Part shown: positions 2,389-17,535 of the stretch, one piece after another
Numbering within the stretch: position 1 is the stretch's first letter
Layout of the letters: each line of letters starts with the position of its first letter
Sequence record: PZ049722.1
Origin: a phage
Strand: one strand, 5' to 3'
Length of the DNA stretch: 23,441 bases
Position numbers and translations under genes: made by a program
Notes under the pieces: generated by a model
The model's input: only the letters and a program-made list of their open reading frames with translations
What the model was told of the DNA's origin: nothing
The model's database searches: none

Positions 2389-2402
2389 AGGGGGTGTGAG
2401 CC

Positions 2403-2828
2403 ATGGCCATCACCATCGAACAAATCATGGAGCAGGCTCAGGTGTACGCCTCGGCCTGGAGCCTGGTCGGCGGGCCGTTCGACCAGGGCAACCTGCTGCA
2501 GCAGGCCGAGCTGGAGAAGCGGTGCTGCTGGAGATGGTCACTGCCTTCGAGGACGAACCCATGCCGCAGGGGCCCAGGAAGCGCAGCTCGACCTGGCTAA
2601 GCCGCTGATCGAGTGGCACCAGCACCGCATTGGCAACCTCAGCAAGTTGCAGCAGGCGGTAGAGGGCACTGAGATCCGCCTCGGCGAGGCTGATGCCGAT
2701 CCCATCGTCCTGCAGGCGCGATGCTAAAAGGCTGGCGCTTCGCCTTGGCGATTGCCGAGCAGCAGTTCGAGAAGTTCCCGCTGTCCATCGAGCGCAAAGC
2801 TCCCACCAGCGACGAGGAGGATGACCAT
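2403..2828 (+). pseudogene. Frameshifted copy of the 141-aa early gene found intact at 7871..8296
   Basis: ORF 2403..2600 shares the first 39 residues (MAITIEQIMEQAQVYASAWSLVGGPFDQGNLLQQAELEK) with the 141-aa protein and then leaves frame; 1-bp deletions seen relative to the right arm. Confidence 0.6.
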
Positions 2829-3176
2829 GCGCGCTCCCAACGTCATCCCGCTCAGCGCCAGATCGCCGCTGAGATCTCCATCCAACACGCGCTGCCCATG
2901 TGCACCGTGCTGACCCCTGAACTGGCCGACAAGCTCCGCGCCCTCAACGACATGACCCGCCGCCTGCGCGCGGCGGGCGTGCGTATCGAGGCCGCATCCC
3001 CGCTCGACGGCAAGATCTTCATCAACGCCGAAGACTCCGACCAGCTCGCCGCATCGTTCCGCAGTGAGTGGCGCGGCGTGAGTTGGAGCACCAAAGGCGT
3101 CCACACCATCAACAGCGTCCGCCTCGGCGGCTGCCAAGTCTGCTGGCTTACGCCAGTGAAGGAGCAGGAGTCATGA
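2826..3176 (+). pseudogene. Frameshifted copy of the 118-aa early gene found intact at 7518..7874
   Basis: ORF 2721..3176 carries the C-terminal 100 residues of the 118-aa protein fused to the upstream frame; about two 1-bp deletions near 2815-2860. Confidence 0.6.
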
Positions 3177-3355
3177 GCCTCGAAGCACGCCTGCGCGAAG
3201 CGCTGGAGCTGCTCAAACGCAGCGCCGGCTACGCCTCGGCCTATCCGACCATCGGTGGCCACAAGCTCAACGACGAGATCTGCCGCTTCCGCGAGGCGGT
3301 ACAGGCCGAACTCGAAACCAACGCCCAACAAGCCGAGGAAGAAACCCATGGCTGA
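3173..3355 (+). CDS. Small hypothetical early protein (60 aa), duplicate of 7339..7521
   Basis: Internal ATG with GGAG-type RBS; identical to right-arm copy. Confidence 0.5.
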   Translation: MSLEARLREALELLKRSAGYASAYPTIGGHKLNDEICRFREAVQAELETNAQQAEEETHG

Positions 3356-3968
3356 GCAAATCGCAATCCCCGAAGGCTTCGTCAAGAATGCTGCCGGCCA
3401 TCTGGTGCCGGAACACCAGGTGCGCGAGCACGACAAGCTGCGCGACAGCGTCGCCCGCGAGCTGGCCAACCAGGCCGTGGCCATCAGCGAGGCGCTGGGC
3501 GCGTTCAAGGCTAAGGCCCTGGGCGATATCGCCGACCTGATCGCCATCTCGGCCGAGAAGTACCAGGTCAAGCTCGGCGGCAAGAAGGGCAACGTCTCGA
3601 TCGTCACCTACGACGGCCGCTACAAGATCGAGCGCGCCATGGCCGAGCGCATCACCTTCACCGAGGAGATCCTCGCGGCCAAGGAGCTGATCGACCAGTG
3701 CATCCGCAAATGGAGCGAAGGCGCCGACCAGCACCTGCGCATCCTGGTCGACCGCGCGTTCCGCGCCAACCGCCAGGGCCAGATCAAGACCGGCGACGTG
3801 CTCAGCCTGCTGCGCGTCGAGATCGAAGACCCCGACTGGCAGCGCGCGATGGAGGCCCTGAAGGACTCCATCCAGGTCAACGGCACCGCCGTATACATCC
3901 GCGTCTACCAGCGCGTCGGCAACACCGACCGTTACGAGCCCATCAGCCTCGACATTGCGAAGGTGTGA
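3348..3968 (+). CDS. Conserved phage early protein (206 aa, possibly DUF3164-like), duplicate of 6726..7346
   Basis: Identical protein on both arms; start MAEQIAIPEGF after RBS. Confidence 0.55.
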   Translation: MAEQIAIPEGFVKNAAGHLVPEHQVREHDKLRDSVARELANQAVAISEALGAFKAKALGDIADLIAISAEKYQVKLGGKKGNVSIVTYDGRYKIERAMAERITFTEEILAAKELIDQCIRKWSEGADQHLRILVDRAFRANRQGQIKTGDVLSLLRVEIEDPDWQRAMEALKDSIQVNGTAVYIRVYQRVGNTDRYEPISLDIAKV

Positions 3969-3970
3969 CC

Positions 3971-4678
3971 ATGGACCAGGATCGCATTCTCGAAAAGATC
4001 AAGAAGTGCATGGAGATGGCCAAGGGCAAGGGCTCGAATCCGAACGAGGCCGAAATCGCCCTGCGCCAGGCGCATAAGCTGATGGAGGCCTACAACCTGG
4101 AGATGGGCGACGTCCTGGCCAGCATGGCCGGTGAGGTCACCATCGAAGCCGGCTCGGATGGTACCCCACCCACCTGGCGTATCCGCCTGGCTCAGGTGTG
4201 CGCCCATGCGTTTGGCACGCGCATGATCATCACGCAGAAGCTCACGGACCACTTCGACGTTGTAGGCGCCTTCATCTTTGTGGGCTGCGCAGCGGCACCA
4301 GAGCTGAGCGGATACGCCTACCAAGTGCTGGAGCGGCAGCTGCAGAAGGCTCGACGTGAGTTCCTGCAGTCACCGAAGAACAAGCGCTGCAAGCGCTCAA
4401 CCAAGGTCGCGCGCGGCGATCACTTCGCTAACGGCTGGATTGATGCCGTGTACCTCAAGGTCGACCAGTTCGCTGGCGTTGACGACAACATCGCCGAAGC
4501 GATCGAAGCCTACATGGCGAAGCACCACGCCGACCTGGGCAAGCACGAAATGAAGCGCCGCAAGCTCAAAGCCCGCGATGAAGGTGCCGCCGAGGCCGGT
4601 TACCAGGCTGGCAAGAGCGCCCAACTGCACCACGGACTTGGCCACAAGCCCGTCGCCCGACTGACTCAGGGGGTGTGA
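3971..4678 (+). CDS. DUF2786-like phage protein (235 aa), duplicate of 6016..6723
   Basis: N-terminus MDQDRILEKIKKCMEMAKGKGSNPNEAEIALRQAHKLMEAYNLE resembles the DUF2786 signature; identical on both arms. Confidence 0.55.
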   Translation: MDQDRILEKIKKCMEMAKGKGSNPNEAEIALRQAHKLMEAYNLEMGDVLASMAGEVTIEAGSDGTPPTWRIRLAQVCAHAFGTRMIITQKLTDHFDVVGAFIFVGCAAAPELSGYAYQVLERQLQKARREFLQSPKNKRCKRSTKVARGDHFANGWIDAVYLKVDQFAGVDDNIAEAIEAYMAKHHADLGKHEMKRRKLKARDEGAAEAGYQAGKSAQLHHGLGHKPVARLTQGV

Positions 4679-4679
4679 G

Positions 4680-4904
4680 ATGCAAACCCTTGAATGCACC
4701 GTGAAGTACTACATGGGTGCCTACCAGACCAACACCGTGCGCAGCCAGCGCGCCAGCTGCAGCCACTCCGAGGACGAGGCCGTGCGCCACCTGGGCGTAA
4801 AGCTGTTCGGCGAGCAGCTCCACCACGTCGAGCGCATCGATCTCAAACCCAGCGATCAGCCGGGCATGAGCCGCTGGCTGATCGTTGGTCGGGAGGTGCA
4901 GTGA
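4680..4904 (+). CDS. Small hypothetical protein (74 aa), duplicate of 5790..6014
   Basis: Identical ORF on both arms; starts 2 nt after upstream stop. Confidence 0.45.
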   Translation: MQTLECTVKYYMGAYQTNTVRSQRASCSHSEDEAVRHLGVKLFGEQLHHVERIDLKPSDQPGMSRWLIVGREVQ

Positions 4905-5327
4905 TGGGCCATCCAATTTTCCAAGACGCCCCCTCAAGGGACATGACCAAGGCTCAGGAGCGCCAGGCCGAGCTAGATGCGCAGGTCGAAGCCTTCCTGG
5001 CCAAGGGCGGGGAGATCAAGGCCTTCGACAACTTCCGCCGTCCTGATCCAGAGTGGGCCCTGGCGCTCGAAGTCGATCAACCCCGAGCAGCAGAAGCCAG
5101 CTCAGGCTGCGCCCATCAAGGCGAAACCGGCCAAGCCCGCCGCTCCTGTGAAGGCAAAGCCGGTACCGGAGGTGCCAGCCGAACCGGTGGCGGTGGCTAC
5201 CATCGACCTCAGCGCTGAGCTGCGCGCCTTGCGCAAGCAGACTGCAGCCATCAACCGCCCGGCCTGGCGCGAGTTGAGGTCTTTCGAGGACTCGACGCCA
5301 GCAACGCGGCGCAGCAGCGCGCGATAG
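4904..5327 (+). pseudogene. Frameshifted copy of the 130-aa K/P/A-repeat protein encoded intact at 5395..5790
   Basis: Identical for 47 residues after MGHPIF, then leaves frame near 5041-5050 where the two arms differ by an indel; the proper frame continues in ORF 4977..5327. Confidence 0.6.
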
Positions 5328-5398: not shown

Positions 5399-5790
5399 GC
5401 GCGACCACCCATAGAGCAGCTCAGGCGATTAAGGCGGCGGTTGATGGCTGCAGTCTGCTTGCGCAAGGCGCGCAGCTCAGCACTGAGGTCGATGGTAGCC
5501 ACCACCACCGGTTCGGCTGGCACCTCCGGTACCGGCTTTGCCTTCACAGGAGCGGCGGGCTTGGCCGGTTTCGCCTTGATGGGCGCAGCCTGAGCTGGCT
5601 TCTGCTGCTCGGGGTTGATCGACTTCGAGCGCCAGGGCCCACTCTCGATAGGACGGCGGAAGTTGTCGAAGGCCTTGATCTCCCCGCCCTTGGCCAGGAA
5701 GGCTTCGACCTGCGCATCTAGCTCGGCCTGGCGCTCCTGAGCCTTGGTCATGTCCCTTGAGGGGGCGTCTTGGAAAATTGGATGGCCCAT
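5395..5790 (-). CDS. Hypothetical early protein (131 aa) with K/P/A-rich repeat tail
   Basis: Start MGHPIF overlaps upstream stop; contains PAQAAPIKAKPAKPAAPVKAKPVPEVPAEP. Confidence 0.5.
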   Translation of the reverse strand: MGHPIFQDAPSRDMTKAQERQAELDAQVEAFLAKGGEIKAFDNFRRPIESGPWRSKSINPEQQKPAQAAPIKAKPAKPAAPVKAKPVPEVPAEPVVVATIDLSAELRALRKQTAAINRRLNRLSCSMGGRA

Positions 5791-6014
5791 CACTGCACCT
5801 CCCGACCAACGATCAGCCAGCGGCTCATGCCCGGCTGATCGCTGGGTTTGAGATCGATGCGCTCGACGTGGTGGAGCTGCTCGCCGAACAGCTTTACGCC
5901 CAGGTGGCGCACGGCCTCGTCCTCGGAGTGGCTGCAGCTGGCGCGCTGGCTGCGCACGGTGTTGGTCTGGTAGGCACCCATGTAGTACTTCACGGTGCAT
6001 TCAAGGGTTTGCAT
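5790..6014 (-). CDS. Small hypothetical protein (74 aa)
   Basis: ORF in operon context, tight spacing to neighbours. Confidence 0.45.
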   Translation of the reverse strand: MQTLECTVKYYMGAYQTNTVRSQRASCSHSEDEAVRHLGVKLFGEQLHHVERIDLKPSDQPGMSRWLIVGREVQ

Positions 6015-6015
6015 C

Positions 6016-6723
6016 TCACACCCCCTGAGTCAGTCGGGCGACGGGCTTGTGGCCAAGTCCGTGGTGCAGTTGGGCGCTCTTGCCAGCCTGGTAACCGGCC
6101 TCGGCGGCACCTTCATCGCGGGCTTTGAGCTTGCGGCGCTTCATTTCGTGCTTGCCCAGGTCGGCGTGGTGCTTCGCCATGTAGGCTTCGATCGCTTCGG
6201 CGATGTTGTCGTCAACGCCAGCGAACTGGTCGACCTTGAGGTACACGGCATCAATCCAGCCGTTAGCGAAGTGATCGCCGCGCGCGACCTTGGTTGAGCG
6301 CTTGCAGCGCTTGTTCTTCGGTGACTGCAGGAACTCACGTCGAGCCTTCTGCAGCTGCCGCTCCAGCACTTGGTAGGCGTATCCGCTCAGCTCTGGTGCC
6401 GCTGCGCAGCCCACAAAGATGAAGGCGCCTACAACGTCGAAGTGGTCCGTGAGCTTCTGCGTGATGATCATGCGCGTGCCAAACGCATGGGCGCACACCT
6501 GAGCCAGGCGGATACGCCAGGTGGGTGGGGTACCATCCGAGCCGGCTTCGATGGTGACCTCACCGGCCATGCTGGCCAGGACGTCGCCCATCTCCAGGTT
6601 GTAGGCCTCCATCAGCTTATGCGCCTGGCGCAGGGCGATTTCGGCCTCGTTCGGATTCGAGCCCTTGCCCTTGGCCATCTCCATGCACTTCTTGATCTTT
6701 TCGAGAATGCGATCCTGGTCCAT
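6016..6723 (-). CDS. DUF2786-like phage protein (235 aa)
   Basis: Same protein as 3971..4678; internal start MDQDRILEK. Confidence 0.55.
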   Translation of the reverse strand: MDQDRILEKIKKCMEMAKGKGSNPNEAEIALRQAHKLMEAYNLEMGDVLASMAGEVTIEAGSDGTPPTWRIRLAQVCAHAFGTRMIITQKLTDHFDVVGAFIFVGCAAAPELSGYAYQVLERQLQKARREFLQSPKNKRCKRSTKVARGDHFANGWIDAVYLKVDQFAGVDDNIAEAIEAYMAKHHADLGKHEMKRRKLKARDEGAAEAGYQAGKSAQLHHGLGHKPVARLTQGV

Positions 6724-6725
6724 GG

Positions 6726-7346
6726 TCACACCTTCGCAATGTCGAGGCTGATGGGCTCGTAACGGTCGGTGTTGCCGACGCGCTGGTAGACGCGGATGTA
6801 TACGGCGGTGCCGTTGACCTGGATGGAGTCCTTCAGGGCCTCCATCGCGCGCTGCCAGTCGGGGTCTTCGATCTCGACGCGCAGCAGGCTGAGCACGTCG
6901 CCGGTCTTGATCTGGCCCTGGCGGTTGGCGCGGAACGCGCGGTCGACCAGGATGCGCAGGTGCTGGTCGGCGCCTTCGCTCCATTTGCGGATGCACTGGT
7001 CGATCAGCTCCTTGGCCGCGAGGATCTCCTCGGTGAAGGTGATGCGCTCGGCCATGGCGCGCTCGATCTTGTAGCGGCCGTCGTAGGTGACGATCGAGAC
7101 GTTGCCCTTCTTGCCGCCGAGCTTGACCTGGTACTTCTCGGCCGAGATGGCGATCAGGTCGGCGATATCGCCCAGGGCCTTAGCCTTGAACGCGCCCAGC
7201 GCCTCGCTGATGGCCACGGCCTGGTTGGCCAGCTCGCGGGCGACGCTGTCGCGCAGCTTGTCGTGCTCGCGCACCTGGTGTTCCGGCACCAGATGGCCGG
7301 CAGCATTCTTGACGAAGCCTTCGGGGATTGCGATTTGCTCAGCCAT
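6726..7346 (-). CDS. Conserved phage early protein (206 aa, possibly DUF3164-like)
   Basis: Same protein as 3348..3968. Confidence 0.55.
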   Translation of the reverse strand: MAEQIAIPEGFVKNAAGHLVPEHQVREHDKLRDSVARELANQAVAISEALGAFKAKALGDIADLIAISAEKYQVKLGGKKGNVSIVTYDGRYKIERAMAERITFTEEILAAKELIDQCIRKWSEGADQHLRILVDRAFRANRQGQIKTGDVLSLLRVEIEDPDWQRAMEALKDSIQVNGTAVYIRVYQRVGNTDRYEPISLDIAKV

Positions 7347-7521
7347 GGGTTTCTTCCTCGGCTTGTTGGGCGTTGGTTTCGAGTTCGGCCTGTACCGCCT
7401 CGCGGAAGCGGCAGATCTCGTCGTTGAGCTTGTGGCCACCGATGGTCGGATAGGCCGAGGCGTAGCCGGCGCTGCGTTTGAGCAGCTCCAGCGCTTCGCG
7501 CAGGCGTGCTTCGAGGCTCAT
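7339..7521 (-). CDS. Small hypothetical early protein (60 aa)
   Basis: Same protein as 3173..3355. Confidence 0.5.
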   Translation of the reverse strand: MSLEARLREALELLKRSAGYASAYPTIGGHKLNDEICRFREAVQAELETNAQQAEEETHG

Positions 7522-7874
7522 GACTCCTGCTCCTTCACTGGCGTAAGCCAGCAGACTTGGCAGCCGCCGAGGCGGACGCTGTTGATGGTGTGGACGCCTT
7601 TGGTGCTCCAACTCACGCCGCGCCACTCACTGCGGAACGATGCGGCGAGCTGGTCGGAGTCTTCGGCGTTGATGAAGATCTTGCCGTCGAGCGGGGATGC
7701 GGCCTCGATACGCACGCCCGCCGCGCGCAGGCGGCGGGTCATGTCGTTGAGGGCGCGGAGCTTGTCGGCCAGTTCAGGGGTCAGCACGGTGCACATGGGC
7801 AGCGCGTGTTGGATGGAGATCTCAGCGGCGATCTTGGCGCTGAGCGGGATGACGTTGGGAGCGCGCATGGTCAT
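7518..7874 (-). CDS. Hypothetical early protein (118 aa)
   Basis: Intact ORF in early operon; the left-arm copy is frameshifted. Confidence 0.5.
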   Translation of the reverse strand: MTMRAPNVIPLSAKIAAEISIQHALPMCTVLTPELADKLRALNDMTRRLRAAGVRIEAASPLDGKIFINAEDSDQLAASFRSEWRGVSWSTKGVHTINSVRLGGCQVCWLTPVKEQES

Positions 7875-8296
7875 TCCTCCTCGTCGCTGGTGGGAGCTTT
7901 GCGCTCGATGGACAGCGGGAACTTCTCGAACTGCTGCTCGGCAATCGCCAAGGCGAAGCGCCAGCCTTTTAGCATCGCGCCCTGCAGGACGATGGGATTG
8001 GCATCAGCCTCGCCGAGGCGGATCTCAGTGCCCTCTACCGCCTGCTGCAACTTGCTGAGGTTGCCAATGCGGTGCTGGTGCCACTCGATCAGCGGCTTAG
8101 CCAGGTCGAGCTGCGCTTCCTGGGCCCCTGCGGTATGGGCTTCGTCCTCGAAGGCAGTGACCATCTCCAGCAGCACCAGCTTCTCCAGCTCGGCCTGCTG
8201 CAGCAGGTTGCCCTGGTCGAACGGCCCGCCGACCAGGCTCCAGGCCGAGGCGTACACCTGAGCCTGCTCCATGATTTGTTCGATGGTGATGGCCAT
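7871..8296 (-). CDS. Hypothetical early protein (141 aa)
   Basis: Intact ORF directly downstream of the B gene; the left-arm copy is frameshifted. Confidence 0.5.
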   Translation of the reverse strand: MAITIEQIMEQAQVYASAWSLVGGPFDQGNLLQQAELEKLVLLEMVTAFEDEAHTAGAQEAQLDLAKPLIEWHQHRIGNLSKLQQAVEGTEIRLGEADANPIVLQGAMLKGWRFALAIAEQQFEKFPLSIERKAPTSDEEE

Positions 8297-8299
8297 GGC

Positions 8300-9472
8300 T
8301 CACACCCCCTTCACAACATCAGCGGTGATGCGGCTTTCGCCGATTTCGGCGGCGAGGTTGAGGGCGGCGTTGAACAGGTTGCCGATGGCCAGCGGGTAGA
8401 GCTGGCTGGCACCGTCCTTACCCGAGCTGCCCAGGCGTTCGATGATGGCCTGCACGCCGCTGGCATCGATCAGCTCGTCGAGCTGCTTGCCGGCGTGCTT
8501 GCAACGAAATGCCAGGTGCGCGTCCAGGTCACCGACGGTGATGGGCTGCAGTTGCGCAATCTCGATGCGCTGGGCCACCTCGCGCACGTCGCCGTTGCGC
8601 GGGCTGAGTTTGATCAGCAGCTCGGGCTGGCCGATGAGGATGATGGACAGCAGTTTGTCGAAGCCGTGTTCGAGCTGGTCACGCATGCGCTTGAGGTGCT
8701 TGAGCGTGGGGATGGGCAGCGAGTGCGCCTCTTCGATGATCAGCACATGGCGGAAGCCTGCGCCGTGGCTGGCTTTGAGCGTGGCGTGCATCTGCGCGAA
8801 GCGGGCTTCGGGGCTGGATTTGGCTTTCTCCAGCGGCGCCACAGCGGCCATCACAGACTCGGCAATGTGGGTGGCCTTCAGGGATTTGCCCTTGGTGTCG
8901 TTGTCCTCCATGCCCAGCACGTAGGGTTCGATGACGATCACCGGCTCATTGCGCAGGCGGTGCGCCAGGTCGCGGCGCAGCGTGCTTTTGCCGGCGCCGG
9001 ACTCGCCCACCACGGCCAGGAAGCCATCATGGCGCGCGGTCTGGTACATGCTCTCGCGGATGTAGCGGATATCGGGGCTCAGGTACATCTCATCGGCCGA
9101 CTTGAGGTCGTCGAAGGGGTCGCGGTGCAGGTTGAACGCCCGCTTGGTGTCTGGTCGCAGCACTTGTTTAGCCATTAGCATGTCGGGGCACTCCTGGGTT
9201 TCGTGATTGTTTTCCGGGGTTGCAGGGGCCTGCGCGTTGGCGCGCGCAGGCTCCATCTCTTCAAACGCGGCGCGCACAGCGTCGAACTCCGCGCCTTGTT
9301 GCATCAGGTACTCAGTGATGCCCCAGGCCAGCTGGTTCATCGGGATGCTCTTGGGCCACTGGCCGTGGTTGATCAGTTGGGCGATGGCTGCCGGGCTGAG
9401 CTTCACCGCCCTGGCCAGGTCGGCCTGGCCCTTGCCCACGCTGGCCAGCACTTGCTTGAGACGTTTCATCAC
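8300..9472 (-). CDS. Mu B-like transposition ATPase / target DNA activator (390 aa)
   Basis: Walker A GESGAGKST, N-terminal HTH-like region, sits directly downstream of and overlapping the transposase gene. Confidence 0.8.
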   Translation of the reverse strand: MMKRLKQVLASVGKGQADLARAVKLSPAAIAQLINHGQWPKSIPMNQLAWGITEYLMQQGAEFDAVRAAFEEMEPARANAQAPATPENNHETQECPDMLMAKQVLRPDTKRAFNLHRDPFDDLKSADEMYLSPDIRYIRESMYQTARHDGFLAVVGESGAGKSTLRRDLAHRLRNEPVIVIEPYVLGMEDNDTKGKSLKATHIAESVMAAVAPLEKAKSSPEARFAQMHATLKASHGAGFRHVLIIEEAHSLPIPTLKHLKRMRDQLEHGFDKLLSIILIGQPELLIKLSPRNGDVREVAQRIEIAQLQPITVGDLDAHLAFRCKHAGKQLDELIDASGVQAIIERLGSSGKDGASQLYPLAIGNLFNAALNLAAEIGESRITADVVKGV

Positions 9473-11241
9473 TCACCCCCAACCAGGCGCAGGCCTGGGC
9501 GTGCGGGCGCTTGCAGCTGGGCGACGATGGCGTCGAGCTGCTCCTCCATGGCGCCATCGGGGTAGTTGGCCTTGAGCCATTCCATCGACTCGGGCGTCCA
9601 GCCGCTGCCCAGGCGCGCGCGCAGCGCCTTGGCCAGCTCGATGCGGTTGAGCGGCTTCAGCTCCACCGAGGCCAGGCCGGAGCGGCTTTCCAGCTCTATA
9701 CCGCGCTTGGGCAGGTAGGCCGGCAGCATGGTATTGGCCTGTTCCTTGAACGGGTCGATCTCGCCGCCGAATGGCGTGGCGCGCGCCTTCTTGGCCTTCT
9801 CGGCAGCCTCGATACTGTCGGTGCCAGTGGCGAGCTGGTCCAACGTCTTCTTGGTCTGCTCGGCCTGGCTCTCCGGCAGCGAGCGGATGCCCTCGCCGAT
9901 CACTCGGCGGGTAGCACCGTTGGCGGCGAAGCCGTTGTCATCCTTGTCGACGCGCTCGACCACGTGGTAATGCTCGCGACCGTCTTCGCCGACCAGCACG
10001 AGCTGGGCGCTCTCCTGGTCGCGCCATGGGTTGCGGGTGATCAGCACACTGTCGCCGACCATCAGGCCCGGCACGTCGGCGATGCAGTACTCGGCGCCGC
10101 GGAACGGCACGCGCAGCTTGGCGGTGACCTTGCGCTTCTCCGGCTGGGCGATCGCCAGCTCGCGGCAGATCTCGGCGGCCGGCGCGATGCGCAGCTGCTC
10201 AGGGCGGATCAGCATCCAGGCGCCGTAGCGGGTGCGCTGGTGGCGGGTGTGGATGGCGGTGGCGTTGTAGTGCCGCATCCAGCGCCCGGCCAGGGCGTTG
10301 ATCTGCTCCAGGGTGCTGGGCTTGTCCATCAGGCGCAAGCCGCTCTCGAACTCACGCTCGACGATGTTGTGCGCCTGCTCGACCTGGCCCTTGGCGCGGG
10401 CGTTGCCGACCTTGTTGATGATCAGCTCGATGGACAGCGCATGGCACAGGTTGCGGAACATCGCAGAGGTCATGGCCGCACCGGGGTCGGTCATGATCAT
10501 GAAGGGCGCACCGTGGAATGGATCGTGCTCGCCACGTTTCTGCATCGCGCTGATCAGCACCTCGCAGAGGTTCTTCGCACTCTCGGCGCCCAGCACGTAC
10601 TGCACATAAATAGTGCCGCTGGTGTGGTCGGTGATCACGTAGCGCCACAGGCGCTGCTTCTCGATGCGCTTGAGATTCTCGGGCTTGCCGTCGTAGAACT
10701 CGGCCTTGTTCATGGCGCGGGCGCCGTCGTCGGCCAAGTAGAATTGGGTCGAGATCGAGGCGTCGATCTGCCAGACGTGGTTCGGGTGCAGGCTGACCAG
10801 CTCCACGGCCGGCGCCGGGCGCAGCACCTGATCCGGGTGCAGGCCGTAGGCGCGCAGGGCACGGGCGATGGCATCGAGCGACAGCGGGCGGATCTCGCCG
10901 GTGGCGCCGTCGATGATCTCGGCGCGGATCTGCCCATTGCTGCGCAGGCGCTCCACGGCGCGCTCCAGGGTGCTGAGTTGTTTATCGTTGTCGCGGATGG
11001 ACTGAATCAGCACGGCGCTGATCAGCTCCGCCTCATGCCGCTCCAGAGCCGAGGTGCCGGCATCGCTGCGACGTTTACGGGGAGTGGTCACGGTGACCTC
11101 CTTGAGCTTGCGGTAAACGGTTGCGAGGGTGATGCCCATGTCCGTTGCTGCCGCCCTGCACAGGGCGGTTTTGCTGCCGCGCGGCGCCTGCTCGATGTCT
11201 CGAGCCAGGGCTACCAGGCGTTGGGTCATCACTGCACTCAT
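9469..11241 (-). CDS. Mu A-like DDE transposase (590 aa)
   Basis: Size, N-terminal DNA-binding region, core motifs HVWQIDAS and MIMTDPGAAMTS typical of Mu/B3/D3112 transposases, followed by a B-like ATPase. Confidence 0.85.
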   Translation of the reverse strand: MSAVMTQRLVALARDIEQAPRGSKTALCRAAATDMGITLATVYRKLKEVTVTTPRKRRSDAGTSALERHEAELISAVLIQSIRDNDKQLSTLERAVERLRSNGQIRAEIIDGATGEIRPLSLDAIARALRAYGLHPDQVLRPAPAVELVSLHPNHVWQIDASISTQFYLADDGARAMNKAEFYDGKPENLKRIEKQRLWRYVITDHTSGTIYVQYVLGAESAKNLCEVLISAMQKRGEHDPFHGAPFMIMTDPGAAMTSAMFRNLCHALSIELIINKVGNARAKGQVEQAHNIVEREFESGLRLMDKPSTLEQINALAGRWMRHYNATAIHTRHQRTRYGAWMLIRPEQLRIAPAAEICRELAIAQPEKRKVTAKLRVPFRGAEYCIADVPGLMVGDSVLITRNPWRDQESAQLVLVGEDGREHYHVVERVDKDDNGFAANGATRRVIGEGIRSLPESQAEQTKKTLDQLATGTDSIEAAEKAKKARATPFGGEIDPFKEQANTMLPAYLPKRGIELESRSGLASVELKPLNRIELAKALRARLGSGWTPESMEWLKANYPDGAMEEQLDAIVAQLQAPARPGLRLVGGE

Positions 11242-11244
11242 GGG

Positions 11245-12192
11245 TCAGGCTCCCTGCTGCTGGCTGGCCAGCGCGGCGGCGACTTCCTCGTCGGCGCCAT
11301 CGCGCAGCCAGGCCGGCACTACCGTGGCCACGGGCGTGGCCTCGATGCCGTACTCCGCGCGGATCTCCAGCAGCGCTTGCTCCACCTGGGCCAGCAGGCC
11401 GGCGGCAAACACACGCTGGTCGGCGCCCTCGTGCTGCATCAGCTGGTGAATGGCCGGGTACAGCGCGCCGCTGATAGCCGCCTCGGCGGCGCCGGCCTTG
11501 GCGGTGGCCTCCAGGCGCAGTTCCTGCAGTTGCTCGTCCAGCGGCTTGACCTCTACCACTGGCTTTTTGGCGAGCTGGGTGGACAGCTCGTTGATCTTGG
11601 CGTCCTTGTCGGCCATCACGCGGCCCTGGGCGGTTTTGTCCTCGCGGGCGTCGCGCAGGGCTTTGCGTAGCTCCTTGACGGACATGGTGGCCACGTCGTC
11701 GAGGCTCAGCTCGCCGGTCTGGCCAGTGAGTTCCAGCTCCTGGATCTCTTCGTCGTCCAGGACGAGCATCTCGAACAGCTTGGATTGGTTGCCGATGGCC
11801 TTGGCCATGGCTGCGTTGCTGCCGAGAGAGGCGAATTTAGTGGCGGACTGGATGAACCTTTTGGCTACGCTCCACTCGATACCCAGCGCATCTAGTCGGT
11901 CAATAAAATTGCCGTGCCCGCATGCCTTCCTGAGCGTATATAGGCCGCGACCGACCTCCAGGCACGCTTCGACACTGCGGCGCATATTGGCAGTGATATC
12001 GCGTTGGATCAGATCCGGGTCGGTGCTGTCGGCTGGCAACAGGTAGCCGACCAGTGCGGCAGCCTCGCGCACGTCGGCTTCATGCTCGGCGCTGAGCGTG
12101 GCCACCTGGTGCTGGCGGGCCAGCAGGGTTTCGCTCTGCTGTTGATCGTCTGCGGCCAGCTCGATGGTGGCGTTGGGTTTACGAGCCATCAC
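11245..12192 (-). CDS. Hypothetical early protein (315 aa), acidic and coiled-coil rich; possibly DUF3102-like
   Basis: Long ORF with high GC3 directly upstream of the transposase; family assignment is tentative. Confidence 0.5.
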   Translation of the reverse strand: MMARKPNATIELAADDQQQSETLLARQHQVATLSAEHEADVREAAALVGYLLPADSTDPDLIQRDITANMRRSVEACLEVGRGLYTLRKACGHGNFIDRLDALGIEWSVAKRFIQSATKFASLGSNAAMAKAIGNQSKLFEMLVLDDEEIQELELTGQTGELSLDDVATMSVKELRKALRDAREDKTAQGRVMADKDAKINELSTQLAKKPVVEVKPLDEQLQELRLEATAKAGAAEAAISGALYPAIHQLMQHEGADQRVFAAGLLAQVEQALLEIRAEYGIEATPVATVVPAWLRDGADEEVAAALASQQQGA

Positions 12193-13647: not shown

Positions 13648-13968
13648 ATGGCTACTGAGAATCAGGTTTCGGAACAAATCCGCCGCGAGGTTGCGGCTGC
13701 AACAGCGGAGCTTCGGCAGAAGCTGGATCAACAGGACGAGTGGATGAATGGCCTGTTACTGGCGCTTGAGGATCTGATGCAGGCGCTACTACGGGCGAAT
13801 CCTGAGATGGTTGAGCCTGCGATTGCGGACTGGCAGAAAGCGGCTGAGCACTACGAGCTGGCGACTCAAGGCCTGTACCCGGATGAATCACCGGAGCGTC
13901 TTGAGCCACGGAAGATGCTGTACCGGATGCTGAACGCGACAGGCGCGCTGCAGCACCGGCAGGGGTGA
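13648..13968 (+). CDS. Hypothetical small helical protein (106 aa), antisense to the early operon, atypical codon usage
   Basis: Reading frame with GC3 about 70 percent and rare codons (TTA, CTA, ACA); the antisense frame there has GC3 about 40 percent; ATG at 13648. Confidence 0.5.
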   Translation: MATENQVSEQIRREVAAATAELRQKLDQQDEWMNGLLLALEDLMQALLRANPEMVEPAIADWQKAAEHYELATQGLYPDESPERLEPRKMLYRMLNATGALQHRQG

Positions 13969-14293
13969 TCAGGCACTTGCCGTTGGCGCGAGTGGCAGCG
14001 GCCAGGATGGCGGCAACGGTTGCTGGGGCGTCTTGAACCTGCAGGCGGTCACCAATGATGCGCCCAGCGCCAATCAGCATCAGGCGATCAACCAGGCGGC
14101 GGGTGCCTTCGGTAGCCGGGGTGCGGTCGACGCAGACGCTCAGCTTGGCTTGAGCATCGGCCAGGTGCCAGGCGATGGCGCATTCGTCACCGGGGCCACA
14201 GGCGATAACGGCGTCGAGCGCGGCGCGCCAGGCGTCCATTGGGTGGGGGATCAGCTCGATCTCTTCGAGCGCGATTTGCGGTTGGTCGGTCAT
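13652..14293 (-). CDS. Early gene after ner (gene X); coding signal holds only from 14293 to about 13969 and there is no stop until 13652
   Basis: ATG at 14293 with GAGGG RBS; high GC3 for the first 109 codons, then a low-complexity S/P/A/Q tail antisense to the 13648..13968 gene. Confidence 0.4.
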   Translation of the reverse strand: MTDQPQIALEEIELIPHPMDAWRAALDAVIACGPGDECAIAWHLADAQAKLSVCVDRTPATEGTRRLVDRLMLIGAGRIIGDRLQVQDAPATVAAILAAATRANGKCLITPAGAAARLSRSASGTASSVAQDAPVIHPGTGLESPARSAQPLSASPQSQAQPSQDSPVVAPASDPQAPVTGHSSTRPVDPASAEAPLLQPQPRGGFVPKPDSQ

Positions 14294-14325
14294 GGCTGTG
14301 ACCCTCTGGCGGCGGTTGCGTTGGG

Positions 14326-14535
14326 TTAGGCGGCGACGGGTTCGCCGGTTTTGATGCCTAGGGCCACGGCGATTTCGTGGGCCTGGCCGTAGTTGGCTTT
14401 GTCGAAGCCGTTGAGCACGCGGTACACCGCGTTGCGCTTGTAGCCGTGCTCTTCGGCCCACTGGGTGATGGTGATGCCGCGCTGGCGGAATCGCTGTTTG
14501 ACCTGTTCAGGGGTCAGTGCCTTCTGGGTAGCCAT
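14326..14535 (-). CDS. Ner-like DNA-binding protein (69 aa)
   Basis: MATQKALTPEQVKQRFRQRGITITQWAEEHGYKRNAVYRVLNG...AHEIAVALGI fits the Ner/Nlp pattern; AAGGAG RBS; divergent from the repressor gene. Confidence 0.7.
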   Translation of the reverse strand: MATQKALTPEQVKQRFRQRGITITQWAEEHGYKRNAVYRVLNGFDKANYGQAHEIAVALGIKTGEPVAA

Positions 14536-14589
14536 GGCGGTGGCTCCTTTTGGGTTGCTGAATGATGTTTGTGTTTTGTTGGGCTGATG

Positions 14590-14635
14590 ATGGTGCGGAT
14601 ATCCGCACCTGTCAAGGAAAAGTGCGGAAAACTGC
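14590..14635. promoter_or_regulatory. Immunity-region operator and early promoter: perfect 18-bp palindrome GGTGCGGATATCCGCACC plus a GTGCGGA half-site; minus-strand -35 TTGACA abuts the palindrome
   Basis: Palindrome at about 14592..14609; half-site repeat at about 14623..14629; reverse complement of tgtcaa at about 14611..14616 gives TTGACA with the palindrome as spacer. Confidence 0.5.
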
Positions 14636-15073
14636 ATGATTGGTGAGCGACTAAAAGAAGAGCGCAAGCGCTTAGGTCTTACCCAGCCCGGGTTGGCCGA
14701 GGTTGCTGGCGCGGCTAAGAGGACTGTCATTGACTGGGAGAAGGGCGTTTCGTCGCCTACAGCAGCCCAGTTAGAGGCACTTTCCAGGGTTGGAGTGGAT
14801 GTGCTTTTCGTCGTCACCGGTATTCGCGGTCAAACTGTGACCAATGAGTCAAATAGCGCGACGTCGCGCTATTTGACTGAAAACTCAAATCCGGTCACGC
14901 ATTCAGTGGAGGCTGAGCCGCTGGGTGAATACCGGCTAAACCGGCGCGAGAAGGCGCTACTGGAGAATTACCGAGGCTCGGACGAAGAAGGACGACGAGC
15001 CATGGAGAGCACCGCGAGTGCTCTGGCGCACAGGGACAGTGCGAAGAAGAAAGGACGCCAAGGCGGCGAATGA
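14636..15073 (+). CDS. XRE-family HTH transcriptional regulator, putative prophage repressor (145 aa)
   Basis: N-terminus ERLKEERKRLGLTQPGLAEVAGAAKRTVIDWEKG is a Cro/C1-type HTH; divergent from the ner-like gene across the operator. Confidence 0.7.
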   Translation: MIGERLKEERKRLGLTQPGLAEVAGAAKRTVIDWEKGVSSPTAAQLEALSRVGVDVLFVVTGIRGQTVTNESNSATSRYLTENSNPVTHSVEAEPLGEYRLNRREKALLENYRGSDEEGRRAMESTASALAHRDSAKKKGRQGGE

Positions 15074-15095
15074 CAGCGCGTATGGGGATTAGGGA

Positions 15096-15833
15096 ATGAG
15101 CAAGGCTCTGATTGTTCTAGGGGTGGTTTTATCTCTGACAGGATGTGCAACTGACTACAGCAAGAAAACCCCGGCTGAAGTGGCAAAGGAGGTGCGTGTT
15201 CTCGACAGTGAGTTCAATGCGCATCGCCTGCTGATGGCGCCAGTGGTGAAAGCGAGCCCCATGTTCGGCATGAACTATTCAGCTCGTTTGGTTAGATCCC
15301 AGGCAAAAGCTGATGGCAGCGTTACACACGTGTTGACCGTTGATTGGGACTACTCAAGTAGCCGATGGATGTTTTTCAGCTCCGCGACGTTGCCGGGCGC
15401 TAGGTCGCTGGTGGTGCGTGCCAACGACAGGCATGTGCGTAGCTGCGGTAGCTATGGCAGTTGCAGTTACACGGAAAGGGTCTCGGCGATCATTCCGCTG
15501 GATGTACTGATTGGGCTTGCTGCAAGTCGTAGCGACATGAACATCAGATTCGGTTCACAGCAGGGCTACGTGGATCTGGCTCTACCGGCAAACTACGTTC
15601 TCGGTTACCTGCAGGGCACCTCAACAATCGCTGAGGCGCAAGGAGGCTCTGCGGCTCCAGCTCCTGCCGCCTCTCGAATCCCGAAATGGGAGCCTGTCCC
15701 AACTCGCCCTGCGGGCCAGCCTGCTGAGGCGGTGGCCAAGAGCAAGGAACAGCAGCTCCAGGAGCTAAAGAACACGCCGGGGCTGAGTTACGAGGAATAT
15801 CAGCGGCGGTATCGGATGATCATGGGGCAGTGA
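15096..15833 (+). CDS. Lipoprotein (245 aa), candidate lysogenic-conversion or superinfection-exclusion factor
   Basis: Signal peptide with lipobox LSLTGC; ATG 23 nt after the repressor stop with GGGA RBS; codon usage appears AT-richer than the phage core. Confidence 0.65.
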   Translation: MSKALIVLGVVLSLTGCATDYSKKTPAEVAKEVRVLDSEFNAHRLLMAPVVKASPMFGMNYSARLVRSQAKADGSVTHVLTVDWDYSSSRWMFFSSATLPGARSLVVRANDRHVRSCGSYGSCSYTERVSAIIPLDVLIGLAASRSDMNIRFGSQQGYVDLALPANYVLGYLQGTSTIAEAQGGSAAPAPAASRIPKWEPVPTRPAGQPAEAVAKSKEQQLQELKNTPGLSYEEYQRRYRMIMGQ

Positions 15834-15844
15834 GGCGACGAACG

Positions 15845-15890
15845 GTACATTGTTCCCATTGCACAATGGGAACAATGTTCCTATAGTGGA
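15845..15890 (+). promoter_or_regulatory. Sigma70-like promoter (-35 TTGCAC, 17-bp spacer, -10 TATAGT) overlapped by a 14+14 bp inverted repeat CATTGTTCCCATTG-ca-CAATGGGAACAATG
   Basis: Read directly from sequence; strong AGGAG RBS follows before the ATG at 15932. Confidence 0.5.
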
Positions 15891-15931
15891 CACATGCCAG
15901 CCACAACGGCGGCGAATCAAGGAGAGAAGCC

Positions 15932-16270
15932 ATGATCACCATCAAATACACTCTGACCCAAGGCATGAGCGGCGCAGGTACTCACACTGAGCTGGAAGTG
16001 GCCACTGGCCCGCGTAATCTGATCAAGTTTGCTGAGGCATTCGATAGCGTGCGTGATCGCCTGAAGGCCGCCTACGGCAACGTTGGATGTGGTCGGGTCT
16101 GGGTAGAAATTGACGGTATTGAGGTTTCCGAGTCCGAGCTGAAAAAATTGACTCGCCAGGACTACGAAATTGACATGCGCGACTACAAGGACGGCATTCG
16201 TTCGAGCAAGCCGGATAGCCTGACCATTCGCGCCACTGATCTGCTTGCAGACCTGCGGGAGGCAGCATGA
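15932..16270 (+). CDS. Hypothetical protein (112 aa), first gene of the cargo operon
   Basis: ORF with AGGAG RBS; stop overlaps the next start (ATGA); no family recognised. Confidence 0.6.
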   Translation: MITIKYTLTQGMSGAGTHTELEVATGPRNLIKFAEAFDSVRDRLKAAYGNVGCGRVWVEIDGIEVSESELKKLTRQDYEIDMRDYKDGIRSSKPDSLTIRATDLLADLREAA

Positions 16271-16860
16271 GCGCTCGGAATAAATACGCAAATTGGGCGC
16301 TTGGCGTGCCGGCTGCGCGGCTTCGTCAGCGTAGCCGCATGAGCACCTATGACGAGGCCGCTACCAGCGGCCTCGCGTTCGAGCTGCAAGAGCTGACCGG
16401 GCTGCGTTTCGATGAGTCGGCCTGGCTGGCCGGCGTAACGTGCCATGTAGCGATTACGCATCCTGCACTGCTCAAGTGGGCCGGTGAGCCGCCAGATGCG
16501 CCGGGATTCATCTACACCTGGGCGACCTGTGCGCCGAATCTACGAGGCTCGCAGCGCGTCGACATCAACGAACGGCGCTTTGAGCGCTGGCTGAAATCCG
16601 CCACCGATGCTGATGCCCTGGCTGACTGGTACGGCTACACCCTGGAGGCGCTAAAAGTTGTGCGCGGGAAACACTTCGATATCCGCACGTTGTTCGATAT
16701 CGGCCGCTTGCGCGCCCTTCACTTCGCCGACGAGCTGCCGCAGGTCGGGCCGCGCGCGTTCTCAGGCTACTGCGCTCTTGAGTTCTACAATCACCAGCCG
16801 CAGGGGCTGGGCGGGGCAGTACCTCGGCAAATTCCGACCGAATTGTTGATTGGCTCATGA
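16267..16860 (+). CDS. Hypothetical protein (197 aa), second gene of the cargo operon
   Basis: Translationally coupled to both neighbours; no family recognised. Confidence 0.6.
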   Translation: MSARNKYANWALGVPAARLRQRSRMSTYDEAATSGLAFELQELTGLRFDESAWLAGVTCHVAITHPALLKWAGEPPDAPGFIYTWATCAPNLRGSQRVDINERRFERWLKSATDADALADWYGYTLEALKVVRGKHFDIRTLFDIGRLRALHFADELPQVGPRAFSGYCALEFYNHQPQGLGGAVPRQIPTELLIGS

Positions 16861-17060
16861 AACCAGACGCCTCCCTACACAACCCAGACCCGCGCTATAT
16901 CGCGGGTCTGGTCGAGCAGACCGGGCTGCTGAAGGGCGAGGTTGCTCGACTGCTGGGTATCACGCCAAAGGCCCTTCGCAACTACATGGACGAGAAATTG
17001 AAGCGCGAAATTCCCTACTCAACCCAGTTCGCCCTTGAGTGCCTGGCCGCTCAGGAATAA
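16857..17060 (+). CDS. Small HTH DNA-binding protein (67 aa), third gene of the cargo operon
   Basis: GEVARLLGITPKALRNYMDE is a classic helix-turn-helix; ATGA overlap with the upstream gene. Confidence 0.6.
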   Translation: MKPDASLHNPDPRYIAGLVEQTGLLKGEVARLLGITPKALRNYMDEKLKREIPYSTQFALECLAAQE

Positions 17061-17090
17061 CGCCAGGAATAATCCGCACACCGTTTTAGA

Positions 17091-17121
17091 GGGCGCCGCA
17101 ATGGCGCCCTTTCGATTTTTG
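17091..17121 (+). terminator. Rho-independent terminator: 7-bp GC stem GGGCGCC/GGCGCCC, 5-nt loop, then a T-rich tract
   Basis: gggcgccGCAATggcgccc followed by tttcgatttttg, 30 nt after the stop of 16857..17060. Confidence 0.7.
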
Positions 17122-17235
17122 CCCCGTCCAAATTACTCCGCGCGCGCGCGAGGCGAAGCTGTGATCTCTGCCGTTTAAGACCGGCACTTATTAGCACAGC
17201 AACGGCCAGGGATTGGCCAACCTCGGAGCGCAATC

Positions 17236-17535
17236 ATGTCTCAAGCCTGCAAGCCCAAGCGCCGCCTACTGCCGCGCATGACCGTTTTCGCTGTTATCTC
17301 CCTGATGCTGCTGACCGCCATCTGGTTCGTGCGGCCCGAGCAACTGCAAGTGGTGCTGTACAAGGCCAGCCTGGTGACGCTCGGCGCCGTGCTGGGTTAC
17401 TACATCGACCGTGCGGTGTTCCTGACCGAAGCCCGGCCGCATGAGTGCATTGGCGGCATCCACATCGTTGGCGCCTGGCTGCGGCGCGCCCTGATCGTGC
17501 TGGCCTGCATCCTCGGCCTGACGCTGGGGCTCTAG
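17236..17535 (+). CDS. Small membrane protein with about 3 TM segments, putative holin
   Basis: Hydrophobic segments VFAVISLMLLTAIWFV, ASLVTLGAVLGYYI and ALIVLACILGLTLGL; sits directly upstream of the endolysin. Confidence 0.5.
   Translation: MSQACKPKRRLLPRMTVFAVISLMLLTAIWFVRPEQLQVVLYKASLVTLGAVLGYYIDRAVFLTEARPHECIGGIHIVGAWLRRALIVLACILGLTLGL

What the first reader, a model, noticed from the sequence alone, without database searches (positions are those of the whole stretch)
15096..15833. Lipoprotein gene directly behind the repressor: candidate superinfection exclusion
A 245-aa lipoprotein (lipobox LTGC) starts 23 nt after the repressor stop with no promoter or terminator visible in between, so it is likely expressed in the lysogen with the repressor. 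Known phage lipoproteins made in lysogens (T5 Llp, phi80 Cor) block the phage receptor. Its codon usage also appears atypical, consistent with acquired cargo.
Basis: partly seen in the sequence, partly recalled or inferred. Interest (0 to 1): 0.55.

Follow-up and report, generated by a model that had tools for sequence, protein, structure and literature searches.

The report
Modular prophage lipoprotein behind repressor
A Pseudomonas Mu-like (B3-type) prophage carries, right behind its repressor gene, a real but uncharacterised lipoprotein built from a new beta-sandwich domain plus a short tail that many such phages attach to unrelated lipoprotein domains; it is a plausible but untested candidate for protecting the lysogen at the cell envelope.

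Summary
ORF 15096-15833 (+) encodes a 245-aa protein with a signal peptide and lipobox (LTGC, Cys17). It starts 22 nt after the stop of a 145-aa HTH protein, and no promoter or terminator was found between them. That HTH protein is homologous to the experimentally proven repressor RepC of the B3-like phage Fc02. The window is a B3-like (Beetrevirus) transposable prophage of Pseudomonas.

The protein has three parts: a confidently modelled beta-sandwich (residues 20-184), a disordered Pro/Ala linker, and a two-helix tail (KEQQLQELxNTPGLSYEEYQRRYxxIMGQ). The head belongs to a large, unannotated family of ~180-aa lipoproteins and has no informative structural match. The tail is shared by lipoproteins with at least 8 unrelated heads. 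All but one class sit in the same repressor-to-holin slot of B3-like phages, including B3 ORF22, JBD25 gp22 and Fc02 gp20. Published RNA-seq shows Fc02 gp20 ("e4") is transcribed with the repressor in lysogens. Head and tail are both under strong purifying selection.

The atypical codon usage is real, but the repressor and neighbouring genes share it. There is no similarity to Llp, Cor, Ltp or any catalogued defence protein. Superinfection exclusion remains a reasonable, untested guess.

The parts
14326..14538 (-). ner/cro-like HTH gene. It is the first gene of the leftward early (transposase) operon and diverges from the repressor gene.
   Evidence: phrog_925, E 1.6e-32. 90% aa identity to PM105 gp19.
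14593..14636 (.). Operator-like repeats GTGCGGATATCCGCA / GTGCGGAAAACTGCA in the 97-nt ner-repressor intergenic region. They overlap a minus-strand promoter-like site (TTGACA-17-CATCAT).
   Evidence: Repeat family D8 and inverted pair I4. Promoter scan. Function is inferred by analogy with pE/pC2 of Fc02.
14636..15073 (+). Immunity repressor gene (145 aa, HTH_3).
   Evidence: Pfam HTH_3, E 7e-8. Homologous to the proven Fc02 RepC, to PM105 gp20 and to B3 ORF18.
15074..15095 (+). 22-nt spacer with a GGGGA ribosome-binding-like run. No promoter or terminator was detected in it.
   Evidence: Sequence; scan.
15096..15146 (+). Signal peptide and lipobox (MSKALIVLGVVLSLTG|C, Cys17). Residues +2 to +4 are A-T-D.
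   Evidence: Sequence. Cys invariant.
15147..15647 (+). Head domain, residues 18-184: a beta-sandwich with invariant Cys117/Cys123 at a hairpin and a C-terminal helix ending in the motif LPxNYVLGYLQG.
   Evidence: AF2 pLDDT >90 across residues 20-180. 721 representative relatives at E<=1e-3, mostly 175-190-aa lipoproteins. dN/dS 0.016.
15648..15734 (+). Disordered Pro/Ala-rich linker, residues 185-213, containing the semi-conserved motif RIPKWEPVPTRP.
   Evidence: pLDDT <50. The motif is shared with other head classes.
15735..15833 (+). Conserved two-helix C-terminal tail, residues 214-245 (KSKEQQLQELKNTPGLSYEEYQRRYRMIMGQ), plus the stop codon.
   Evidence: phrog_29962 E 2e-7 and phrog_10370 E 1e-6. 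Shared by 8 head classes. Pooled dN/dS 0.22 with pS 0.56.
15847..15878 (+). Perfect 14-bp hairpin (ACATTGTTCCCATTG..CAATGGGAACAATGT) just after the stop. It has no clean U-run and overlaps a promoter-like site at 15860-15887. It marks the mosaic joint to the next cassette.
   Evidence: RNA fold -28.3 kcal/mol, z -4.0. Unique in the window and absent from the 17 related loci fetched by then. Homology to L006 ends at 15829.
17088..17112 (+). First canonical intrinsic terminator downstream: 11-bp stem, 7 GC pairs, T-run. It lies before the holin gene (17236-17535) and is the outer limit of any read-through lysogenic transcript.
   Evidence: Terminator scan. Holin_2-3 Pfam, E 4e-19.

Best explanation
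The gene encodes a genuine, selectively maintained lipoprotein that travels as a mobile accessory cassette in the immunity (repressor) operon of B3-like transposable prophages.

Shown here:
- It has a signal peptide, a lipobox and an invariant lipidated Cys.
- It has a compact beta-sandwich head with a conserved Cys pair, as expected for an oxidising extracytoplasmic compartment.
- It has a ~30-residue flexible linker and a conserved two-helix tail.
- The gene lies 22 nt behind the repressor gene, with no detectable promoter or terminator between them.
- Lipoproteins with at least 8 unrelated heads carry the same tail. Seven of these classes occupy the same repressor-to-holin slot.

Shown in the literature for a slot-mate (Fc02 gp20 = e4): transcription on the repressor mRNA in the uninduced lysogen.

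Inferred:
- The window's gene is likewise made in the lysogen from the repressor promoter(s).
- The mature protein is probably anchored in the inner leaflet of the outer membrane. It has no Asp at +2 and no Lys-Ser at +3/+4, which are the known Lol-avoidance signals.
- The constant tail most likely provides a common service, such as docking to a conserved envelope component or self-association.
- The exchangeable head most likely binds a particular periplasm-exposed target.

The most likely benefit is protection of the lysogen at the envelope against other phages. This could block adsorption or DNA passage from the periplasmic side, as T5 Llp does with FhuA. The target could be the type IV pilus machinery, which B3-type phages use according to my recollection of the literature, or another outer-membrane machine.
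For: Gene reality and architecture.

Repressor identity and linkage.

Conserved position, always co-oriented with and downstream of the repressor and upstream of the holin, across relatives of 45-96% identity and across other head classes.

Tail lipoproteins in isolated Beetreviruses (B3 ORF22, JBD25 gp22, Fc02 gp20, Ps56, UMP151 and others). 29 of about 50 Pseudomonas B3-like records have a tail match.

RNA-seq co-transcription of repc and e4 in the Fc02 lysogen: PMC9936078.

Cassette-like mobility. Homology to PM105 stops exactly at the repressor stop. Homology to L006 covers only 14847-15829. The 96%-identical copy in P. aeruginosa has a different repressor and different neighbours.

Head swapping on a constant, purifying-selected tail is the pattern expected for conflict or accessory genes.
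Against: There is no functional test of any member. No homology or fold match to known exclusion lipoproteins or defence families was found.

In Ps56 and Fc02 the reported exclusion was assigned to other genes, and e4 was left without a function.

About 40% of deposited B3-like phages lack a tail lipoprotein, PM105 among them, so it is dispensable.

Outer-membrane sorting and the target are inferred only.

The head family is widespread as stand-alone lipoproteins, and I could not establish their genomic context. A housekeeping-type envelope role is therefore not excluded.
Confidence: 0.4

Rival explanations
1. It is a lysogenic-conversion factor that benefits the host for reasons unrelated to phages. 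Examples would be envelope robustness, resistance to serum, antimicrobials or lysozyme, or altered motility or biofilm, in the way lambda Bor works. It would be expressed with the repressor.
For: The same expression logic applies. Slot-mates have BamE-like heads (P0024 Pfam BamE E 0.0026; P0027 has a precomputed PF04355 hit). Distant head relatives are fused to Sel1+SPOR or BamE-like domains, which hints at general envelope biology. The head family is widespread outside recognisable phages.
Against: All of these Pfam hits are below curated thresholds or lie in other proteins. No phenotype is known. Rapid head swapping in one phage slot fits conflict systems at least as well.
Confidence: 0.25
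2. It serves the phage's own lytic cycle. It could be part of lysis or lysis control next to the holin, or a T5 Llp-like 'lytic conversion' that stops progeny from adsorbing to lysing cells and debris.
For: In many relatives the gene lies only one gene, or a few hundred nt, upstream of the holin. In Fc02 the repc-e4 RNA persists after induction.
Against: In the window three genes and a strong terminator (17088-17112) separate it from the holin. A separate Rz-like spanin region lies downstream of the endolysin, as in B3 and PM105. In Fc02 the slot gene is transcribed in the uninduced lysogen, while the holin cluster comes on late. A similar tail lipoprotein sits in a tail-gene cluster of an unrelated phage.
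Confidence: 0.12
3. It is a spurious ORF or a decaying remnant with no function.
For: No annotated family. Atypical composition.
Against: dN/dS is 0.016 for the head and 0.04-0.2 for the tail. There are 27 invariant positions across 20 homologues. The fold is predicted with confidence. Hundreds of relatives exist.
Confidence: 0.01

Closest known systems
Fc02 gp20 ('e4'), JBD25 gp22, B3 ORF22 and UMP151 'putative lipoprotein' (phrog_10370 / phrog_29962): accessory lipoproteins of the Beetrevirus immunity region
   Same: All have a lipobox and the same C-terminal tail motif (..QLxEL....L[SP]YEEYQRRYxxI.GQ). All occupy the same slot between repressor and holin, co-oriented with the repressor. For Fc02 e4, co-transcription with the repressor in lysogens has been published.
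   Different: The head domain is unrelated. The window's beta-sandwich head gives no tblastn match in 50,697 phage records. None of these proteins has a known function.
T5 Llp and phi80/N15/HK022 Cor: outer-membrane lipoproteins that block the FhuA receptor
   Same: They are phage-encoded lipoproteins acting in the envelope, and they give the mechanistic template of blocking a receptor from the periplasmic side. Cor is made in lysogens (from my own knowledge).
   Different: No sequence or fold similarity was detected. The window protein is much larger (228 aa mature) and has a linker and a tail. Llp is an early lytic gene placed next to the receptor-binding protein gene. The host receptor is different.
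Streptococcus phage TP-J34 Ltp: a lipoprotein of the lysogeny module that blocks DNA injection
   Same: It is a lipoprotein gene sited in the lysogeny module and expressed in lysogens, and it is modular (from my own knowledge).
   Different: It comes from a Gram-positive host, has helical repeat domains rather than a beta-sandwich, and shows no homology here.
Bartonella IalB (3dtd) and Borrelia BB0158 S2 lipoprotein (8q4k): the best structural neighbours
SHOCT domain (PF09851)
   Same: It is a short C-terminal two-helix module with an L..L...G.[IL][ST].EEY...[KR] pattern. A distant head relative (P0083) carries a weak SHOCT match at the equivalent place (E 0.011).
   Different: The window's tail gives no SHOCT hit even at E<=10, so membership is not met.

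Membership tests
Bacterial lipoprotein (Lgt/LspA substrate) | N-terminal signal peptide with a positively charged n-region and a hydrophobic h-region | tested here: met
   MSK + ALIVLGVVLSL.
Bacterial lipoprotein (Lgt/LspA substrate) | Lipobox [LVI][ASTVI][GAS]C with a conserved Cys | tested here: met
   LTGC. Cys17 is invariant in A1 and A3. A lipobox is present in 78 of 80 tail-bearing relatives.
Bacterial lipoprotein (Lgt/LspA substrate) | Actual lipidation, globomycin sensitivity and membrane localisation | not testable with these tools
   Needs an experiment. Outer-membrane sorting is inferred only from the +2 to +4 residues A-T-D.
Beetrevirus immunity-region tail lipoproteins (phrog_10370 / phrog_29962) | C-terminal tail motif | tested here: met
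   PHROG hits on residues 189-245, E 2.3e-7 and 1.4e-6. Alignment with Fc02, B3 and JBD25 proteins.
Beetrevirus immunity-region tail lipoproteins (phrog_10370 / phrog_29962) | Position between repressor and holin, on the same strand as the repressor | tested here: met
Beetrevirus immunity-region tail lipoproteins (phrog_10370 / phrog_29962) | Head domain homologous to phrog_10370 members | tested here: not met
   Only the tail matches. The heads fall into a separate cluster.
Beetrevirus immunity-region tail lipoproteins (phrog_10370 / phrog_29962) | Transcription with the repressor in the lysogen | not testable with these tools
   Shown for Fc02 e4 only (PMC9936078). For the window there is only the absence of detectable signals in the 22-nt spacer.
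Receptor-blocking exclusion lipoproteins (T5 Llp, phi80 Cor) | Sequence or structural homology to Llp or Cor | tested here: not met
Receptor-blocking exclusion lipoproteins (T5 Llp, phi80 Cor) | Reduces adsorption or infection when expressed | not testable with these tools
   Needs an experiment.
o-spanin (Rz1-like lysis lipoprotein) | Small Pro-rich lipoprotein embedded in or next to an i-spanin gene, downstream of the endolysin in the lysis cassette | tested here: not met
   The gene lies upstream of the holin, separated from it by three genes and a terminator. The Rz-like region lies after the SLT endolysin, as in B3 and PM105.
Moron in the strict sense (own promoter and terminator) | Independent promoter upstream and terminator downstream | tested here: inconclusive
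   No promoter-like site was found upstream. The downstream hairpin is strong but lacks a U-run and is not conserved. Atypical composition and mosaic joints at the gene borders are met.
SHOCT domain (PF09851), for the tail | Match to the Pfam model | tested here: not met
   No hit at E<=10 for the tail peptide.

The most novel reading that the evidence does not exclude
The constant tail plus exchangeable heads form a modular prophage 'envelope toolkit'. The tail docks every member to one conserved envelope hub, or oligomerises them. Each head disables a different periplasm-exposed target, such as the pilus secretin or alignment complex, BAM-dependent receptors, or the virion's wall-degrading enzymes. 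B3-like prophages would then swap heads to change which competitors they exclude. The window's head would be a new exclusion domain recruited from a large, unstudied family of bacterial lipoproteins.
Probability: 0.2. Interest if true: 0.7.

Novelty: new variant of a known kind. Interest (0 to 1): 0.45.

Why it matters
Prophage genes expressed with the repressor shape which phages can infect Pseudomonas lysogens. That matters for phage therapy and for strain ecology.

This analysis turns a single 'hypothetical lipoprotein' into a defined, testable set. There is one genomic slot, one conserved tail under purifying selection, and at least eight interchangeable heads. One member is already known to be transcribed in lysogens. 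If the set proves to be an exclusion or envelope-remodelling system, it would add a new class beside Tip, Aqs1, PfsE and Llp/Cor. It would also give a function to a head domain found in hundreds of unannotated bacterial lipoproteins. If not, it is an ordinary accessory gene.

Tried and rejected
- Family scans. Pfam, NCBIfam and PADLOC gave nothing for the protein. PHROGs matched only the tail.
- PDB sequence searches with the family profile and with the tail profile gave only noise.
- Context of stand-alone head relatives. Searches found nothing for P0041 and P0062, and one was blocked. Cluster look-ups returned almost only unnamed metagenomic proteins.
- Two word-indexed profile searches were saturated by candidates and added little.
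- SHOCT membership of the tail: not met.
- Spanin or lysis role: rejected on position.
- The hairpin after the stop codon as a repeated operator: rejected. It is unique in the window and absent from the related loci fetched by then.
- Rfam and tRNA scans were empty.
- Several key papers are not held in the library: Carballo-Ontiveros 2020, Braid 2004, Bondy-Denomy 2016 and Tsao 2018. I cannot exclude that one of them tested a slot-mate.

Full report
WHAT IS THERE

The ORF 15096-15833 (+) exists as described. It encodes 245 aa beginning MSKALIVLGVVLSLTGCATDY. This gives a short basic n-region, an 11-residue hydrophobic core and a lipobox L-T-G-C with Cys17.

The preceding ORF 14636-15073 (+) is a 145-aa HTH_3 protein. 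Its stop is followed by a 22-nt spacer containing GGGGA, and then by the ATG. A consensus scan of 14200-17300 found no plus-strand promoter-like or terminator-like site between the start of the HTH gene and the end of the lipoprotein gene.

GENOMIC SETTING

To the left, on the minus strand, lie a ner/cro-like gene (14326-14538, phrog_925), a CII-like gene, an IclR-like HTH gene and the two transposition genes. To the right lie a Holin_2-3 holin (17236-17535), an SLT endolysin, Mu gp27-like and terminase genes, and a Mu-type portal.

Megablast and annotated records identify this as a B3-like (Beetrevirus) transposable phage of Pseudomonas.

The 145-aa HTH protein is 63% identical to the PM105 gp20 'putative repressor'. 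It is homologous to Fc02 RepC in both the HTH and the C-terminal LL.NYR motif. Fc02 RepC is the immunity repressor by a temperature-sensitive mutant and by cloning (PMC9936078).

IS THE GENE REAL AND UNDER SELECTION?

Thirty-five relatives were found in the 5.8-billion-protein collection. Full-length relatives of 45-96% identity occur in Pseudomonas and Ectopseudomonas. Twenty of them align with 27 invariant positions, including Cys17, Cys117 and Cys123.

Against the closest fetched locus (L006, E. chengduensis), pS is 0.26 and pN is 0.005 in the head, giving dN/dS 0.016. For the tail dN/dS is 0.043.

ARCHITECTURE

An AlphaFold2 model built on the 20-sequence alignment has mean pLDDT 80. pLDDT exceeds 90 across residues 20-180, which form a beta-sandwich followed by a long helix (165-185). 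Residues 185-213 are disordered. Residues 217-243 form two short helices. The invariant Cys117/Cys123 flank a hairpin between two strands, which fits a disulphide in an extracytoplasmic protein.

THE HEAD IS A WIDESPREAD, UNANNOTATED LIPOPROTEIN DOMAIN

An exhaustive HMM search of 1.84 billion cluster representatives found 721 proteins at E<=1e-3 (153 at E<=1e-10). Nearly all of the 150 best that were listed are 165-190-aa proteins covering profile positions ~8-176 only.

A lipobox matched my strict pattern in 117 of 146 representatives, and most of the rest have near-lipobox sequences. The family shares GCATxYxxKxPxEVA, DSEFD, the two Cys and LPxNY[VI]xG[YF]L.

A few members carry other C-terminal additions. 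These include Sel1 repeats plus a SPOR domain, a weak BamE-like domain, a Cys-rich domain, and a weak SHOCT-like tail.

No member has a name beyond 'hypothetical protein'. I could not establish the genomic context of the distant stand-alone members. The nearest tail-less one (P0019, 43% identity) sits in what looks, by gene order, like a transposable prophage.

THE TAIL DEFINES A MODULAR SET IN ONE PHAGE SLOT

The last ~30 residues (KEQQLQELxNTPGLSYEEYQRRYxxIMGQ), often preceded by RIPKWEPVPTRP, recur on small lipoproteins whose heads are unrelated to the window's.

Context look-ups place them between the repressor and the holin of B3-like prophages, co-oriented with the repressor. Sometimes one to three other small genes share the slot, and one locus has two tail lipoproteins.

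Clustering the heads of 80 tail-bearing proteins gives 8 unrelated classes. 78 of the 80 have a lipobox.

Tail conservation is at the protein level. Across 29 distinct tail sequences, pS is 0.56 and pN is 0.19, giving dN/dS 0.22.

A tblastn with the tail finds it in isolated phages, always at ~11-12 kb just before the holin. These are B3 (ORF22 'lipoprotein'), JBD25 (gp22 'putative lipoprotein'), Fc02 (gp20), H71, Ps56, Ps59, UMP151, Tom33 and others.

About 29 of 50 Pseudomonas records carrying the B3-type holin have a tail match. PM105 does not. None has the window's head.

One exception to the slot rule was found. In two IMG/VR contigs of a different phage type, a tail lipoprotein lies directly upstream of the tape-measure gene. 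The tail is therefore not tied to B3-specific partners.

EXPRESSION

In Fc02 the only gene between repressor (10817-11143) and holin (11815) is gp20 (11160-11663), 16 nt after the repressor. It has a lipobox (VAGC) and the tail.

Ramirez-Sanchez et al. (PMC9936078) call the gene downstream of repc the accessory gene e4. [quoted passage not shown] They describe a persisting 'repc-e4 mRNA' after induction, and they state that e4 has no assigned function.

By synteny and the equally tight spacing, co-transcription of the window's gene with its repressor is likely. It has not been shown.

WHERE THE TRANSCRIPT ENDS IS UNCERTAIN

Immediately after the stop there is a perfect 14-bp hairpin (15847-15878; -28 kcal/mol; z -4). 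It has no proper U-run and overlaps a promoter-like TGCACA-16-TATAGT. It is unique in the window and absent from the 17 related loci fetched by then. The first canonical terminator is at 17088-17112, before the holin.

MOSAICISM AND COMPOSITION

- Homology to PM105 ends exactly at the repressor stop (15073).
- Homology to L006 covers 14847-15829 and resumes at 17115.
- The tail DNA alone matches loci that carry other heads.
- The 96%-identical protein in a P. aeruginosa genome follows a different repressor plus a 165-aa gene, and precedes 341- and 182-aa genes.

The lipoprotein gene is therefore an independently exchanged cassette, with recombination joints at its borders.

GC3 is 0.62 and CAI 0.37, against 0.81-0.88 and 0.65-0.75 in core genes. 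The repressor (0.59) and the following three genes (0.62-0.71) are the same.

WHAT IT MOST LIKELY DOES

No homology assigns a function, so the argument rests on context:
- expression from the immunity operon;
- an envelope location;
- strong purifying selection;
- cassette mobility;
- a slot in which heads are swapped on a constant tail.

This profile fits accessory genes that act for the lysogen. The best precedents are exclusion lipoproteins: Llp and Cor acting on FhuA from the periplasmic side, and Ltp in a lysogeny module. These precedents are from my own knowledge.

My best estimate is an outer-membrane-anchored, periplasm-facing protein. Its head would bind an envelope machine used by incoming phages. 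Its tail would provide a shared docking or oligomerisation function. I put about 0.4 on the phage-protection part.

Rivals:
- A host-fitness envelope factor (0.25). This is encouraged by the BamE-like, Sel1 and SPOR associations, which are all weak.
- A role in the phage's own lytic cycle (0.12). This is disfavoured by the terminator and three genes before the holin, by the separate spanin region, and by lysogenic transcription of e4.
- A non-functional ORF, which is excluded by the selection data.

Two facts count against the exclusion idea. The exclusion phenotypes of Ps56 and Fc02 reported so far map to other genes. About 40% of B3-like phages also lack the lipoprotein.

NOVELTY AND SCORE

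'Putative lipoprotein' genes in this slot are already annotated in B3, JBD25 and UMP151, so the kind is known, although uncharacterised. Three things are new here:
- this head, which is absent from all deposited phages and belongs to a large unnamed lipoprotein family;
- the recognition that one conserved tail is combined with at least 8 heads in one lysogeny-expressed slot;
- the link to published RNA-seq for a slot-mate.

I found no paper describing a function or this modularity. I rate this a new variant of a known kind, with interest 0.45.

Noticed in passing
window 1-5259 versus 5436-10637: A giant inverted repeat. The first 5.26 kb of the window is the reverse complement of 5436-10637 (91% over 5329 nt). 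The inner 2185 nt are 100% identical and the outer parts 81-98%. The spacer is 176 nt and holds the start of a gemA/Mu gp16-like gene (5398->5102), which is thereby truncated. The early (transposase) arm is therefore present twice, head to head, and is joined inside a gene rather than at a phage end. Possible causes are two related prophages that recombined, an inversion product of replicative transposition, or an assembly fold-back (the normal gene order is seen in L052).
   Followed up: partly
window 15847-17112: A separate three-gene cassette (15932-16270, 112 aa; 16267-16860, 197 aa; 16857-17060, 67 aa, phrog_3865, weak MerR-like HTH). It is bounded by the hairpin/promoter-like site and by a strong terminator. 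It is absent from nearly all related loci. The 197-aa protein has 38%-identical relatives only in two Ralstonia phages. No Pfam or PADLOC family matches the 112- and 197-aa proteins.
   Followed up: partly
window 13652-14329, both strands: The gene-10-like ORF (13652-14299, minus strand; phrog_38063) has an odd codon-position GC profile: GC1 0.74, GC2 0.59, GC3 0.57. Part of this region (about 14030-14280) is homologous to the stretch of Fc02 where overlapping forward-strand genes olg1/olg2 (exclusion activity) and the distal repressor promoter pC1 were described. Forward-frame similarity is also detectable (PMC9936078).
   Followed up: partly
L030 4698-5216 (also L031), IMG/VR UViG 2597490352/3: A 172-aa lipoprotein with the same C-terminal tail sits directly upstream of a 1346-aa tape-measure gene in a phage that shares none of the B3-like marker genes. 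The tail module is therefore not restricted to the B3 immunity slot.
   Followed up: partly
L016 4399-5588; slots of L002, L009, L012, L042 and L052: The repressor-to-holin slot is a hot spot holding 1-5 small genes. One locus has two different tail lipoproteins in tandem. Others carry Flk_N-domain proteins, a CsrA homologue, or recurring 91-aa, 165/166-aa, 170-aa and 341+182-aa genes of unknown function.
   Followed up: no
window 14847-14878: A perfect 32-nt palindrome (AGTCAAATAGCGCGAC/GTCGCGCTATTTGACT) lies inside the repressor coding sequence, exactly where nucleotide homology to locus L006 begins.
   Followed up: no
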